Shown here in pieces: positions 34,508-36,818 of a DNA stretch of 64,000 bases. The stretch lies in the NCBI RefSeq assembly GCF_057098645.1, contig NZ_CM169472.1. One strand, written 5' to 3'. The notes under the pieces are model-generated. The model made no database searches. It had not been told where the DNA came from and worked only from the letters and a program-made list of their open reading frames with translations. The position numbers and the translations under genes were made by a program. How positions within the stretch are numbered: the stretch's first letter is position 1; each line of letters opens with the position of its first letter.

Positions 34508-36818
34508 GTTATTCTCTGCATTCAGAAAAAATAAAATCTGGGATTTCAACGGCGGCATCCATCCACCGGAGATGAAAACCCAGTCCAACGGTACCCCCCT
34601 GCGCCAGGTACCCCTGGCGCAGCGTTTTGTTATTCCACTGAAACAGCATATTGGCGCTGAAGGTGAGTTGTGCGTTAGCGTCGGCGATAAAGTATTGCGC
34701 GGCCAGCCGCTTACCCGTGGTCGCGGCAAAATGCTGCCTGTTCACGCGCCCACCTCGGGTACCGTTACGGCTATTGCGCCCCACTCTACGGCTCATCCTT
34801 CAGCTTTAGCTGAATTAAGCGTGATTATTGATGCCGATGGTGAAGACTGCTGGATCCCACGAGACGGCTGGGCCGATTATCGCTCTCGCCGTCGCGAAGA
34901 GTTAATCGAGCGCATTCATCAGTTTGGTGTTGCCGGGCTGGGCGGTGCGGGATTCCCGACAGGCGTTAAATTGCAGGGCGGCGGAGATAAGATTGAGACG
35001 TTGATTATCAACGCTGCTGAGTGCGAGCCGTACATTACCGCTGATGACCGTTTAATGCAGGATTGCGCGGCTCAGGTCGTAGAGGGTATTCGCATTCTTG
35101 CGCATATTCTGCAGCCACGCGAAATTCTTATCGGCATTGAAGATAACAAACCGCAGGCGATTTCCATGCTGCGCGCGGTGCTGGCGGACTCTCACGATAT
35201 TTCTCTGCGGGTGATTCCAACCAAATATCCTTCTGGCGGTGCTAAACAATTAACCTACATTCTGACCGGGAAGCAGGTTCCACATGGCGGGCGTTCATCC
35301 GATATCGGCGTATTAATGCAAAACGTCGGCACTGCTTATGCAGTGAAACGTGCCGTTATTGATGGCGAGCCGATTACCGAGCGTGTCGTAACCCTGACTG
35401 GCGAAGCAATCGCTCGCCCGGGCAACGTCTGGGCACGGCTGGGGACGCCAGTGCGTCATTTATTGAATGACGCCGGATTCTGCCCCTCTGCCGATCAAAT
35501 GGTGATTATGGGCGGCCCGCTAATGGGCTTTACCTTGCCATGGCTGGATGTCCCGGTCGTAAAGATTACCAACTGTCTGTTGGCTCCCTCTGCCAATGAG
35601 CTTGGCGAACCACAGGAAGAACAAAGCTGCATCCGGTGTAGCGCCTGTGCTGACGCCTGCCCTGCGGATCTTTTGCCGCAACAGTTGTACTGGTTCAGCA
35701 AAGGTCAGCAACACGATAAAGCTACCACGCATAACATTGCCGACTGCATTGAATGTGGGGCTTGCGCGTGGGTTTGCCCGAGCAATATTCCCCTGGTGCA
35801 ATATTTCCGTCAGGAAAAAGCTGAAATTGCGGCTATTCGTCAGGAAGAAAAGCGCGCCGCAGAAGCCAAAGCGCGTTTCGAAGCGCGCCAGGCTCGTCTG
35901 GAGCGCGAAAAAGCGGCTCGCCTTGAACGACATAAGAGCGCAGCCGTTCAACCTGCAGCCAAAGATAAAGATGCGATTGCTGCCGCTCTGGCGCGGGTGA
36001 AAGAGAAACAGGCCCAGGCTACACAGCCTATTGTGATTAAAGCGGGCGAACGCCCGGATAACAGTGCAATTATTGCAGCACGGGAAGCCCGTAAAGCGCA
36101 AGCCAGAGCGAAACAGGCAGAACTGCAGCAAACTAACGACGCAGCAACCGTTACTGATCCACGTAAAACTGCCGTTGAAGCAGCTATCGCCCGCGCCAAA
36201 GCACGCAAGCTGGAACAGCAACAGGCAAATGCGGAACCTGAACAACAGGTCGATCCGCGCAAAGCTGCCGTCGAAGCCGCTATTGCCCGTGCCAAAACAC
36301 GCAAGCTGGAACAGCAACAGGCTAATGCGGAACCAGAACAACAGGTCGATCCGCGCAAAGCCGCCGTCGAAGCCGCTATCGCCCGCGCCAAAGCGCGCAA
36401 GCTGGAACAGCAACAGGCTAATGCGGAACCAGAAGAACCGGTCGATCCGCGCAAAGCCGCCGTCGAAGCCGCTATTGCCCGTGCCAAAGCACGCAAGCTG
36501 GAACAGCAACAGGCTAATGCGGAACCAGAAGAACCGGTCGATCCGCGCAAAGCCGCCGTCGAAGCCGCTATTACCCGTGCCAAAGCGCGCAAACTGGAAC
36601 AGCAACAGGCTAATGCGGAGCCAGAAGAACAGGTTGATCCGCGCAAAGCTGCCGTCGAAGCGGCTATTGCACGCGCCAAAGCACGCAAGCTGGAACAGCA
36701 ACAGGCTAATGCAGAACCAGAAGAACAGGTTGATCCGCGCAAAGCGGCAGTTGCCGCGGCTATTGCCCGCGTTCAGGCCAAAAAAGCCGTCCAGCAAAAG
36801 GTTGTAAACGAGGACTAA
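34500..36818 (+). CDS. rsxC: Rsx/Rnf complex subunit C with a C-terminal tandem repeat extension (772 aa)
   Basis: 772-aa ORF with 4Fe-4S cluster motifs, then six and a half 32-aa repeats ([32 protein letters not shown]). Confidence 0.92.
36156..36770 (+). repeat. In-frame 96-bp tandem repeat array inside rsxC, about 6.5 copies
   Basis: Units begin at 36156, 36252, 36348, 36444, 36540 and 36636, with a partial unit from 36732; near-identical with a few substitutions. Confidence 0.9.

What the first reader, a model, noticed from the sequence alone, without database searches (positions are those of the whole stretch)
36156..36770. Length-variable 96-bp in-frame tandem repeat array at the C-terminus of RsxC
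About 6.5 near-identical 96-bp units encode repeats of [32 protein letters not shown], a predicted charged helical linker. The ORF is 772 aa, 32 aa (one unit) longer than the 740-aa K-12 protein as I recall it, so the array looks like a recombination-prone contingency-type locus. It also generates long spurious antisense ORFs.
Basis: partly seen in the sequence, partly recalled or inferred. Interest (0 to 1): 0.4.

Follow-up and report, generated by a model that had tools for sequence, protein, structure and literature searches.

The report
Variable in-frame repeat tail of RsxC
The end of the E. coli rsxC gene is a real 96-bp in-frame repeat whose copy number differs between lineages but is stable within clones, so it is an ordinary coding minisatellite, not a switch, although it repeats a deeply conserved peptide motif of unknown function.

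Summary
Window 36156-36771 holds 6.4 head-to-tail copies of a 96-bp unit, in frame in the 772-aa RsxC. K-12 has 740 aa, exactly one unit fewer.

In a systematic sample of 59 of 5,424 complete E. coli genomes the array had 3.4 to 7.4 copies. The mode was 5.4 copies (58%), and 6.4 copies made up 12%. Alleles with 1.4 and 11 units also exist.

The contingency-locus reading is not supported:
- Every change is a whole number of codons.
- 59 of 60 O157:H7/O55:H7 genomes and 21 of 23 O145:H28 genomes carry the same 6.4-copy allele.
- The gene encodes a cytoplasmic redox subunit.

Real copy-number changes leave clean two-part chimeric units, as unequal recombination or slippage would. The two 3.4-copy O145 records look like a collapsed assembly.

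The peptide is under strong purifying selection (dN/dS 0.07). Its core, KAAV(E/A)AAIARAKA(K/R)K, recurs 3-11 times in RnfC/RsxC tails across Gammaproteobacteria, with spacers that vary in length. It was found in no other protein family and in no solved structure.

A variable RsxC repeat is already published for Erwinia amylovora. The function of the tail is unknown.

The parts
34500..36818 (+). rsxC ORF, 772 aa (stop codon included in the coordinates)
   Evidence: One search lists the ORF. Searches show RnfC_N, Complex1_51K, SLBB and Fer4 domains and NCBIfam NF003454 (871 bits, matching aa 12-570 only). One search shows the RefSeq annotation of the identical locus in O145 RM9872 as rsxC, WP_000915690.1, 2319 bp.
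34539..35834 (+). Catalytic core of RsxC (aa 14-445): barrel-sandwich N-domain, FMN/NADH-binding domain, SLBB domain and two [4Fe-4S] motifs
   Evidence: Pfam matches are. The solved RnfC chains 8ahx_C, 7zc6_C and 9eri_C align with this part.
35814..36020 (+). Long pre-array helix (aa 439-507), rich in E/R/K. Residues up to about aa 498 align with the C-terminal helix of Azotobacter vinelandii RnfC.
   Evidence: AlphaFold2 predicts a helix at query residues 2-70, with pLDDT 89-96 at its start. 8ahx_C matches the query up to aa 498. The review PMC12174285 says this helix contacts RnfB and RnfH and that its function is unknown.
35961..36011 (+). Older, diverged copy of the motif ([17 protein letters not shown], aa 488-504). 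It is not homogenised with the array.
   Evidence: Read directly from the sequence. An equivalent '(A/L)ARVKAK' copy stands at the same place in most of the distant RnfC tails printed. It falls below the HMM threshold, so calling it a motif copy is an inference.
36054..36116 (+). Second diverged motif-like copy ([21 protein letters not shown], aa 519-539)
   Evidence: Read from the sequence. 'PDNS..I.AR.ARK' is conserved in the enterobacterial tails and in several distant tails. This is an inference.
36156..36251 (+). Repeat unit 1 ([32 protein letters not shown])
36252..36347 (+). Repeat unit 2 (carries an A-to-T substitution at position 16 of the unit)
36348..36443 (+). Repeat unit 3 (ends ...EEPV)
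   Evidence: The unit is identical in nucleotides to unit 3 of O157 180-PT54.
36444..36539 (+). Repeat unit 4 (ends ...EEPV)
36540..36635 (+). Repeat unit 5 (carries an A-to-T substitution at position 12 of the unit)
36636..36731 (+). Repeat unit 6 (matches the consensus peptide)
36732..36815 (+). Terminal 28-aa variant unit ([28 protein letters not shown]). The stop codon follows at 36816-36818.
   Evidence: This C-terminal variant is conserved in Escherichia, Salmonella, Citrobacter, Klebsiella, Raoultella and Kosakonia.
35520..36923 (-). Spurious 467-aa antisense ORF generated by the repeat
   Evidence: The translation is periodic and of low complexity. dN/dS between units in this frame is 2.7. 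It is not annotated in any RefSeq record inspected.
35948..36742 (-). Spurious 264-aa antisense ORF. In this frame the wobble positions coincide with those of rsxC.
   Evidence: dN/dS is 0.10. I read this as a mirror of the sense-strand constraint, because third codon positions coincide, and not as evidence of coding. The ORF is confined to the repeat, rich in Cys/Ser/Ala, and unannotated.
36064..36807 (+). Spurious 247-aa ORF in the +1 frame of the repeat
   Evidence: dN/dS is 2.2.
33929..34507 (+). rsxB, upstream gene. It overlaps the rsxC start by 8 bp.
36819..37877 (+). rsxD, downstream gene. It starts immediately after the rsxC stop codon.

Best explanation
The feature is a protein-coding minisatellite at the 3' end of rsxC.

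Shown here:
- The 96-bp (32-codon) units are gained and lost as whole units, by unequal homologous recombination or replication slippage between neighbouring near-identical units. This leaves two-part chimeric units at the junction.
- The process is slow. Copy number is fixed within clonal groups and differs between lineages, with most E. coli holding 4.4-6.4 copies.
- Because every change keeps the frame, it changes only the number of modules in the RsxC tail, never expression.
- Each module is predicted to be one helix of about 24 residues plus an acidic, proline-containing break of about 8 residues. The helix core, KAAV(E/A)AAIARAKA(K/R)K, has net charge +4 and the spacer -4.
- The peptide is under strong purifying selection.
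- The core motif is shared by RnfC/RsxC tails across Gammaproteobacteria, while the spacer drifts between genera and is homogenised within a species (concerted evolution).

Inferred, not shown:
- The tail emerges after the long RnfC helix that in Azotobacter contacts RnfB and RnfH.
- It acts as a flexible, multivalent array of a binding motif for an as yet unknown partner at the cytoplasmic face of the Rsx complex. Copy number would set reach or avidity, not an on/off state.
For: Array and frame.

Copy-number polymorphism. A flank-only BLAST gave the array length in a systematic sample of 59 genomes:
- 7.4 copies in 2 genomes
- 6.4 copies in 7
- 5.4 copies in 34
- 4.4 copies in 15
- 3.4 copies in 1
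Further alleles have 1.4 and 7.4 copies, and one 937-aa protein has 11 full units.

Stability within clones:
- 59 of 60 O157:H7/O55:H7 records with identical flanks have 6.4 copies.
- 21 of 23 O145:H28 records have 6.4 copies.
- The O145 and O157 alleles have the same unit order and about 4 SNPs between them.

Mechanism:
- O55:H7 DEC5E differs from the O157 allele by one unit, with a clean unit-5/unit-6 chimera. The breakpoint lies in a 24-bp identical stretch.
- Strain A30 carries a two-unit duplication with a clean unit-3/unit-1 chimera.

Selection:
- 48 units from 11 alleles give 41 distinct DNA sequences but only 18 distinct peptides.
- dS is 0.36, dN is 0.026 and dN/dS is 0.07.
- Variable sites by codon position number 8, 5 and 20.

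Deep conservation:
- A unit profile searched against 1.84 billion representative proteins gave only 183 hits at E <= 0.001.
- Among the best 150 listed, every hit of 450 aa or more has the RnfC core.
- The named hits come from Vibrio, Celerinatantimonas, Pseudoalteromonas, Motilimonas, Aliagarivorans and Erwinia.
- In 204 motif copies from 29 proteins, A10 is 100% conserved, A12 98%, R13 97% and A16 97%. There are 3-11 copies per protein and the periods run from 27 to 110 aa.

Structure: AlphaFold2 on the tail gives a helix of about 24 residues per unit and a low-confidence break between units. Mean pLDDT is 73.8 and pTM is 0.23.

Position of the tail: 8ahx_C aligns up to aa 498, and the review describes the RnfC helix contacting RnfB and RnfH.
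Against: - The function of the tail was not tested and no partner is known.
- Copy number ranges from about 1 to 11 in E. coli and from 0 to 5 in Erwinia amylovora (PMC10587187), with no reported phenotype. The solved Rnf complexes work without any such tail. The number of modules is therefore clearly not critical.
- The population figures rest on samples of about 60 records per search, not on all 5,424 genomes.
- Some 'complete' assemblies may carry collapsed arrays.
- The AlphaFold2 model used a single sequence and has low global confidence.
- Concerted evolution inflates the apparent independence of units, so dN/dS between paralogous units is only an approximate measure of constraint.
Confidence: 0.75

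Rival explanations
1. Contingency-type locus. The array would be a hypermutable repeat whose frequent, reversible length changes generate adaptive phenotypic variation within a population.
For: - Copy number differs among E. coli lineages, and similar flank haplotypes carry 1.4, 3.4, 5.4, 6.4 and 7.4 copies.
- Units share identical stretches of 24 bp or more that can support recombination.
Against: - The unit is 96 bp, or 32 codons. All intact alleles stay in frame, so no on/off switch is possible.
- 59 of 60 O157:H7/O55:H7 records and 21 of 23 O145:H28 records have the same allele, and the two exceptions among the O145 records are suspect.
- K-12 derivatives that have been separated for decades (BW25113, MC4100, C3026) all have 5.4 copies.
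- The product is a cytoplasmic-face subunit of a redox complex, not a surface or restriction-modification protein.
Confidence: 0.05
2. The extra unit in the window (6.4 copies against 5.4 in K-12) is an assembly artefact.
For: - Arrays of this kind can be mis-assembled.
- RM13514 and RM12581 (3.4 copies) show a consensus-like unit. RM13514 was assembled first from 454 and Illumina reads, with PacBio reads used for closure.
Against: - The window locus is 100% identical to RM9872.
- The same span is found in two RM9872 assemblies, in 19 further O145:H28 records and in 59 O157:H7/O55:H7 records from many laboratories and sequencing platforms.
- The six units are individually distinguishable by SNPs, and their order is conserved between O145 and O157.
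Confidence: 0.03
3. The tail is a neutral, low-complexity spacer. The repeats would have no sequence-specific role, and both copy number and sequence would drift, constrained only by composition.
For: - There is wide tolerance of copy number: about 1 to 11 in E. coli and 0 to 5 in E. amylovora.
- The tail is absent from the solved Rnf complexes.
- The spacer part of the unit does drift in sequence and length between genera.
Against: - dN/dS is 0.07, with 41 DNA variants collapsing to 18 peptides.
- Core positions are 96-100% conserved in 204 copies from proteins whose catalytic cores are only 45-73% identical to that of E. coli.
- Only 183 matches were found in 1.84 billion representative proteins, and every long match among the best 150 is an RnfC. 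A merely compositional feature would be expected to match many families.
Confidence: 0.2
4. The repeats fold together into a compact solenoid or toroid domain, as speculated for the Erwinia amylovora repeat.
For: - The regular helix-break-helix pattern has a weak V-I-A-L seam on each helix.
- The authors of PMC10587187 suggest this fold.
Against: - AlphaFold2 gives pTM 0.23 and low confidence at every inter-helix break, with no confident packing.
- The period varies from 27 to 110 aa between taxa and even within one protein, which is hard to reconcile with a fixed solenoid geometry.
- Alleles with about one unit exist.
Confidence: 0.08
5. One of the long antisense ORFs, in particular 35948..36742 (-), is a real overlapping gene.
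For: The ORF is 264 aa long, and dN/dS between units in that frame is 0.10.
Against: - In that frame the third codon positions coincide with those of rsxC, so the low dN/dS is inherited from the sense frame.
- The ORF lies entirely within the repeat and its diverged upstream copies.
- It encodes a periodic Cys/Ser/Ala-rich peptide.
- It is not annotated in any record inspected.
- The sense frame is continuous with a conserved catalytic core, and its motif is conserved in distant taxa.
Confidence: 0.02

Closest known systems
40-aa tandem repeat of RsxC in Erwinia amylovora (Ham and Park, Sci Rep 2023, PMC10587187)
   Same: - It occupies the same position, starting at about aa 553 at the C-terminus of RsxC.
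- Its first 16 residues are the same ([16 protein letters not shown]).
- It shows whole-unit copy-number polymorphism between strains (0-5 copies).
- It is stable enough to serve as a low-resolution typing marker.
   Different: - The unit is 40 aa (120 bp) with an Ala/Pro-rich spacer, against 32 aa (96 bp) with a Gln/Glu-rich spacer here.
- The copy range in E. coli is higher, about 1 to 11 with a mode of 5.4.
- That paper did not report selection on the peptide or the distribution of the motif across Gammaproteobacteria.
C-terminal elongated helix of Azotobacter vinelandii RnfC (PDB 8ahx; reviewed in PMC12174285)
   Same: - E. coli RsxC residues from about 445 to 498 align with it.
- It is a C-terminal extension of RnfC beyond the ferredoxin domain, and its function is unknown.
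   Different: - The A. vinelandii chain ends there, at 496 aa, and has no repeat array.
- The E. coli array starts about 55 residues further on and has no relative in the PDB.
Classical contingency loci: phase-variable simple-sequence repeats of Haemophilus, Neisseria and Campylobacter (from my own knowledge of the concept, after Moxon and colleagues)
   Same: It is repetitive DNA within a gene, and its tract length differs between isolates.
   Different: - Those loci have units of 1-8 bp that shift the frame or the promoter spacing.
- They switch at high, reversible rates within clones.
- They sit in surface or restriction-modification genes.
- Here the unit is 32 codons, the frame is always kept, the allele is clonally stable, and the gene is a housekeeping redox subunit.
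In-frame coding minisatellites used for typing, such as the 24-bp repeats of the Staphylococcus aureus spa X region (from my own knowledge)
   Same: - Whole-unit gain and loss occurs by recombination or slippage.
- Units can be told apart by SNPs, so 'unit maps' can be written.
- Variation tracks lineages.
   Different: - The spa repeats lie in a cell-wall-spanning part of a surface protein and vary much faster.
- Here the repeat carries a motif conserved across orders of bacteria, in a cytoplasmic protein.

Membership tests
Contingency (phase-variable repeat) locus | A change in repeat length switches or modulates expression, through a frameshift or altered promoter spacing | tested here: not met
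   The unit is 96 bp, or 32 codons. All 12 intact alleles inspected, from 1.4 to 7.4 copies, and the 11-unit protein stay in frame. The only sub-unit variants are single extra Gln codons.
Contingency (phase-variable repeat) locus | Hypermutability: the tract differs among members of one clone | tested here: not met
   59 of 60 O157:H7/O55:H7 records and 21 of 23 O145:H28 records share one allele. K-12 derivatives all have 5.4 copies. The rate per generation was not measured.
Contingency (phase-variable repeat) locus | The locus lies in a gene for a surface, host-interaction or restriction-modification function | tested here: not met
   The gene is rsxC, the NADH/FMN/Fe-S subunit of the Rsx complex, in the rsxABCDGE-nth operon.
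Protein-coding minisatellite (in-frame VNTR) | Head-to-tail units of 10 bp or more, a multiple of 3 in length, within an ORF | tested here: met
   The period is 96, with 6.4 copies and no indels, in frame in rsxC.
Protein-coding minisatellite (in-frame VNTR) | Copy number is polymorphic between strains by whole units | tested here: met
   The spans between the flanks step by 96 bp: 1036, 1228, 1324, 1420, 1516 and 1612/1618 bp.
Protein-coding minisatellite (in-frame VNTR) | Junction units are simple chimeras, as expected from unequal crossover or slippage | tested here: met
   DEC5E has a unit 5|6 chimera with its breakpoint at positions 54-77 of the unit. A30 has a unit 3|1 chimera with its breakpoint near position 15.
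RnfC/RsxC subunit (NCBIfam NF003454, TIGR01945) | RnfC_N, FMN/NADH-binding, SLBB and 2x[4Fe-4S] domains, with a score above the curated cut-off | tested here: met
   NF003454 scores 870.7 bits against a cut-off of 345. TIGR01945 scores 594.6 bits against a cut-off of 245.95. The Pfam domains are listed.
RnfC/RsxC subunit (NCBIfam NF003454, TIGR01945) | Encoded in an rsx/rnf operon together with the A, B, D, G and E subunits | tested here: met
   The genes rsxA, B, C, D, G, E and nth are annotated around the identical locus. The ORFs are present in the window.
Erwinia amylovora RsxC amino-acid repeat | A tandem repeat at the RsxC C-terminus that begins [16 protein letters not shown] and is variable among strains | tested here: met
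Erwinia amylovora RsxC amino-acid repeat | A 40-aa unit with an Ala/Pro-rich spacer | tested here: not met
   The E. coli unit is 32 aa, with the spacer [14 protein letters not shown].
ER/K single alpha-helix (continuous charged helical linker) | An uninterrupted helix stabilised by alternating blocks of E and K/R, without helix breakers | tested here: not met
   Pro occurs at positions 2 and 28 of every unit. AlphaFold2 breaks the helix between units, with pLDDT below 60 there. The description fits the pre-array helix at aa 439-507 better.
Membrane-binding amphipathic helix | A high hydrophobic moment with a large hydrophobic face | tested here: not met
   The hydrophobic moment is 0.25 and the mean hydrophobicity is -0.32 on the Eisenberg scale for the core helix. 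From my own knowledge of the Eisenberg plot, this is far below the surface-seeking region.

The most novel reading that the evidence does not exclude
The RsxC/RnfC tail is a previously unrecognised multivalent docking array.

- It consists of 3-11 copies of a near-invariant Ala-rich basic helix ([15 protein letters not shown]) on flexible acidic spacers.
- It is anchored next to RnfB through the long RnfC helix.
- It would capture an acidic partner, such as ferredoxin, flavodoxin, SoxR or another factor, and concentrate it at the complex.
- Natural copy-number alleles would then tune electron-transfer kinetics or the switching-off of the SoxRS response between E. coli lineages.
Probability: 0.2. 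Interest if true: 0.55.

Novelty: new member of a known kind. Interest (0 to 1): 0.25.

Why it matters
Practical consequences:
- The array is a trap for assemblers. Two of the 23 O145:H28 'complete' records appear to carry a collapsed version, and rsxC length differences can leak into pangenome, k-mer or machine-learning analyses as false signals.
- As a typing marker it has low resolution but is lineage-informative, as already shown for Erwinia.

Biological point: the tail of gammaproteobacterial RnfC/RsxC carries a repeated motif that is far better conserved than its spacers, is absent from every solved Rnf structure and has no assigned function. That is a modest, well-defined open question about the Rnf/Rsx complex.

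It is not a new kind of genetic element or switch.

Tried and rejected
- **BLAST with array plus flanks.** This did not give copy numbers. Overlapping alignments within the repeat are not chained, so coverage classes of 73%, 82% and so on appear instead. I replaced it with a synthetic query made of the flanks only, whose span in each record gives the array length.
- **Apparent 0.4-copy allele in CFSAN004176 (H60).** The record annotates rsxC as a partial pseudogene and rsxD as frameshifted. I treated it as an unreliable assembly or a larger lesion and did not count it.
- **3.4-copy O145 allele as evidence of within-clone change.** I rejected this as probably an artefact. Unit 2 equals the majority consensus of window units 2-5 (ties at two of the variable positions) and needs several template switches. 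RM13516 came through the same pipeline and kept 6.4 copies, so a real complex event cannot be excluded.
- **Literature.** 'ydgN' plus 'repeat' gave only irrelevant hits. Searches on rsxC or rnfC with VNTR or MLVA found only the Erwinia work. No paper in the library describes the E. coli array or the function of the tail.
- **PDB search with the tail alone.** Only chance-level matches appeared, with a best E-value of 0.05.
- **dN/dS as a test against the antisense ORFs.** It works for four of the alternative frames but not for the frame whose wobble positions coincide with those of rsxC.
- **Membrane amphipathic helix and ER/K single alpha-helix readings.** Both were rejected on hydrophobic moment, proline spacing and the AlphaFold2 model.
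- **Not used.** I did not run the second structure prediction or the collection scans, because they could not decide the open point, which is the binding partner.
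Full report
**1. What is in the sequence**

Tandem Repeats Finder reports one array at window 36156..36771: period 96, 6.4 copies, 92% matches and no indels. It is the only tandem repeat in the 64-kb window.

The array lies in frame in ORF 34500..36818 (+), which is 772 aa. Cut at each DPRK, the array gives six 32-aa units, then a 28-aa variant unit ([28 protein letters not shown]), then the stop codon.

The protein is RsxC:
- Pfam finds RnfC_N, Complex1_51K and SLBB and a 4Fe-4S dicluster domain (Fer4-type models).
- NCBIfam NF003454 'RsxC' scores 871 bits, but its match covers only residues 12-570, so most of the array lies outside the model.
- The locus is 100% identical to E. 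coli O145 RM9872, where it is annotated as rsxC within rsxA-B-C-D-G-E-nth.

BW25113 rsxC is 2223 bp, or 740 aa, with five full units plus the terminal unit.

The three long alternative-frame ORFs exist. None is annotated in any RefSeq record I opened.

**2. Is the length variable, and how fast?**

A BLAST query containing the array could not be used to count copies. I therefore joined 450 bp of upstream flank to 450 bp of downstream flank and read the array length from the span of the match in each record.

In a systematic 'spread' sample of 59 of 5,424 E. coli complete genomes, the spans step by 96 bp:

| Copies | Genomes |
|---|---|
| 7.4 | 2 |
| 6.4 | 7 |
| 5.4 | 34 (includes K-12, MC4100 and B derivatives) |
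| 4.4 | 15 |
| 3.4 | 1 |

Other records hold 1.4 copies (PapRG-04-4) and 7.4 copies (A30). One E. coli protein of 937 aa has 11 full units. Length polymorphism is therefore real and common between lineages.

Within clones the array is stable:
- 59 of 60 O157:H7/O55:H7 records with flanks identical to an O157 query have 6.4 copies.
- 21 of 23 O145:H28 records with flanks identical to the window have 6.4 copies.
- The O145 and O157 alleles share the same order of SNP-marked units and differ at about four nucleotides.

**3. Real events and artefacts**

The one deviant in the O55/O157 set, O55:H7 DEC5E, differs from the O157 allele by loss of one unit. Its fifth unit is an exact chimera of units 5 and 6, with the breakpoint in a 24-bp identical stretch.

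Strain A30 carries a two-unit duplication whose junction is an exact chimera of units 3 and 1. It also lacks one unit elsewhere.

These are the footprints of unequal recombination or slippage between units.

The two deviant O145:H28 records, RM13514 and RM12581, are different:
- They come from the same outbreak and are identical to each other over the locus.
- Their unit 2 equals the position-by-position majority of window units 2-5, with ties at two of the variable positions.
- That unit cannot be derived from the window allele by one crossover. Several template switches are needed.
- RM13514 was assembled first from 454 and Illumina reads, with PacBio reads used for closure (PMC3893438).

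RM13516 went through the same pipeline and kept 6.4 copies, so a real complex event is not excluded.

The window's own copy number is not in doubt.

**4. Contingency locus?**

No, for three reasons:
- Unit gains and losses are multiples of 32 codons, and the only smaller variants are single extra Gln codons. Every intact allele keeps the frame.
- The allele is fixed within clones.
- The gene encodes a cytoplasmic-face redox subunit.

The array is a slowly evolving coding minisatellite.

**5. What the repeat encodes**

Across 48 units from 11 alleles there are 41 different DNA sequences but only 18 different peptides. Pairwise dS is 0.36 and dN is 0.026, giving dN/dS of 0.07. Variable sites fall 8, 5 and 20 by codon position. 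The peptide is therefore under strong purifying selection.

In four of the five alternative frames dN/dS is 2.2-6.3. The exception is the antisense frame of the 264-aa ORF, at 0.10. Its wobble positions coincide with those of rsxC, so the constraint is mirrored. That value is not evidence of coding.

AlphaFold2 was run on the tail alone (aa 438-772) as a single sequence. Mean pLDDT was 73.8 and pTM 0.23. It predicts a long helix at aa 439-507. After that, each unit forms one helix of about 24 residues, followed by a break of about 8 residues with low confidence.

So the array is a string of helices, not one continuous charged helix.

Each unit is electrically neutral overall, with +4 on the core and -4 on the spacer. 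Its hydrophobic moment of 0.25 is too low for a membrane-surface helix.

**6. Beyond E. coli**

RsxC proteins of E. fergusonii, Salmonella, Citrobacter, Klebsiella, Raoultella and Kosakonia all carry 4-8 units that begin with the same [18 protein letters not shown]. The spacers that follow differ in sequence and length between genera but are uniform within a protein, which is concerted evolution. Erwinia amylovora has a 40-aa unit with the same first 16 residues.

I searched a profile of the unit against 1.84 billion representative proteins:
- Only 183 proteins matched at E <= 0.001.
- Among the best 150 listed, every match of 450 aa or more carries the RnfC catalytic core, at 45-73% identity to E. 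coli.
- The short matches are fragments or frameshifted readings of the same DNA.
- Named examples come from Vibrio vulnificus, Celerinatantimonas, Pseudoalteromonas, Motilimonas, Aliagarivorans and Erwinia.

In 204 motif copies from 29 proteins the core is K-A-A-V-[A/E]-A-A-I-A-R-A-K-A-[K/R]-K. Position A10 is invariant, and A9, A12, R13 and A16 are at 96-98%. There are 3-11 copies per protein, and the periods run from 27 to 110 residues.

Pfam has no model for the tail. The PDB has no relative of it.

The solved Rnf complexes (8ahx, 7zc6, 9eri) end at or before the residue that aligns with E. coli aa 498. A recent review notes that the C-terminal helix of A. vinelandii RnfC contacts RnfB and RnfH and that its role is not understood (PMC12174285). 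The E. coli array starts about 55 residues after the stretch that aligns with that helix.

**7. How it most likely works**

Shown:
- It is a coding minisatellite that changes by whole units through recombination or slippage between units.
- It is slow enough to be clonally stable.
- It encodes a modular tail whose helix core is strongly constrained and whose spacer is free to drift.

Inferred:
- The tail is a flexible, multivalent array of a binding motif that emerges near RnfB at the cytoplasmic face of the complex.
- Copy number would change reach or avidity.

The partner is unknown and the inference could not be tested with these tools. The wide tolerance of copy number argues that the number of modules is not critical. 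That range is about 1 to 11 in E. coli and 0 to 5 in E. amylovora.

**8. Comparison with what is known, and novelty**

The closest precedent is the variable 40-aa RsxC repeat of Erwinia amylovora, published as a typing marker in 2023 and reused in 2025. The E. coli array is the same kind of feature, with a different unit length and spacer.

I found no paper in the searchable library that describes the E. coli array, the selection on it, or the spread of the core motif across Gammaproteobacteria. RefSeq already lists the length variants as ordinary RsxC proteins.

I therefore rate the finding as a new member of a known kind, of low to moderate interest. The contingency reading is rejected. The conserved repeated motif of unknown function is the only part that deserves follow-up.

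Noticed in passing
NZ_CP006027 (RM13514, L015) and NZ_CP007136 (RM12581, L002); corresponds to window 36156-36771: Two 'complete' O145:H28 genomes from one outbreak carry an identical 3.4-copy rsxC array. Its second unit is the majority consensus of units 2-5 of the other O145 genomes (ties at two positions). This is probably a collapsed repeat in the deposited assemblies.
   Followed up: yes
NZ_CP014583 (CFSAN004176), L004 1-1022: rsxC is annotated as a partial pseudogene lacking its C-terminus, and the adjacent rsxD is frameshifted. The span suggests that almost the whole array is missing. This is either a poor assembly or a real lesion in the rsx operon.
   Followed up: partly
One search, hits H146-H148 (95-3192, RM9873-C1, RM12522-C8): In three O145 records the span between the flanks is 1515 bp instead of 1516 bp. 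A 1-bp difference would frameshift rsxC or rsxD. It is possibly a homopolymer error, for example in the C7 run at window 37084-37090.
   Followed up: no
Protein P0002 (E. coli RsxC, 835 aa), residues about 158-217: This RsxC carries a 29-aa tandem duplication inside the FMN/NADH-binding domain ([29 protein letters not shown] appears twice). This is in addition to a 7-unit tail.
   Followed up: no
L005 (DETEC-S566), L010 (DS566), P0001; corresponds to positions 21-23 of the window unit (CAG CAA CAG): Some alleles contain 33-aa units with a fourth Gln (QQQQ). This is a second, smaller level of slippage at the CAG/CAA run inside the unit, and it explains spans that are 3 or 6 bp off the 96-bp ladder.
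   Followed up: partly
window 34500-34507 and 36816-36821: rsxB and rsxC overlap by 8 bp. The rsxC stop codon is followed immediately by the rsxD start codon (TAAATG). This arrangement is consistent with translational coupling along the operon.
   Followed up: no
Literature: PMC12711010 and PMC7696260: RsxC is listed among the features that predict clinical outcome in a machine-learning study of O157:H7. In addition, rnfC/rsxC accumulated many short-read variant calls, including in-frame and frameshift indels, in an olaquindox-evolved E. coli. Both results could be affected by mis-mapping or mis-assembly of this repeat.
   Followed up: no
E. fergusonii RsxC proteins P0054, P0022 and P0007 (726, 759 and 792 aa): The sister species shows the same whole-unit ladder, with steps of 33 aa, but a different spacer (QEQQAAANTSDNETV). 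The array has therefore been homogenised separately since the species split.
   Followed up: partly
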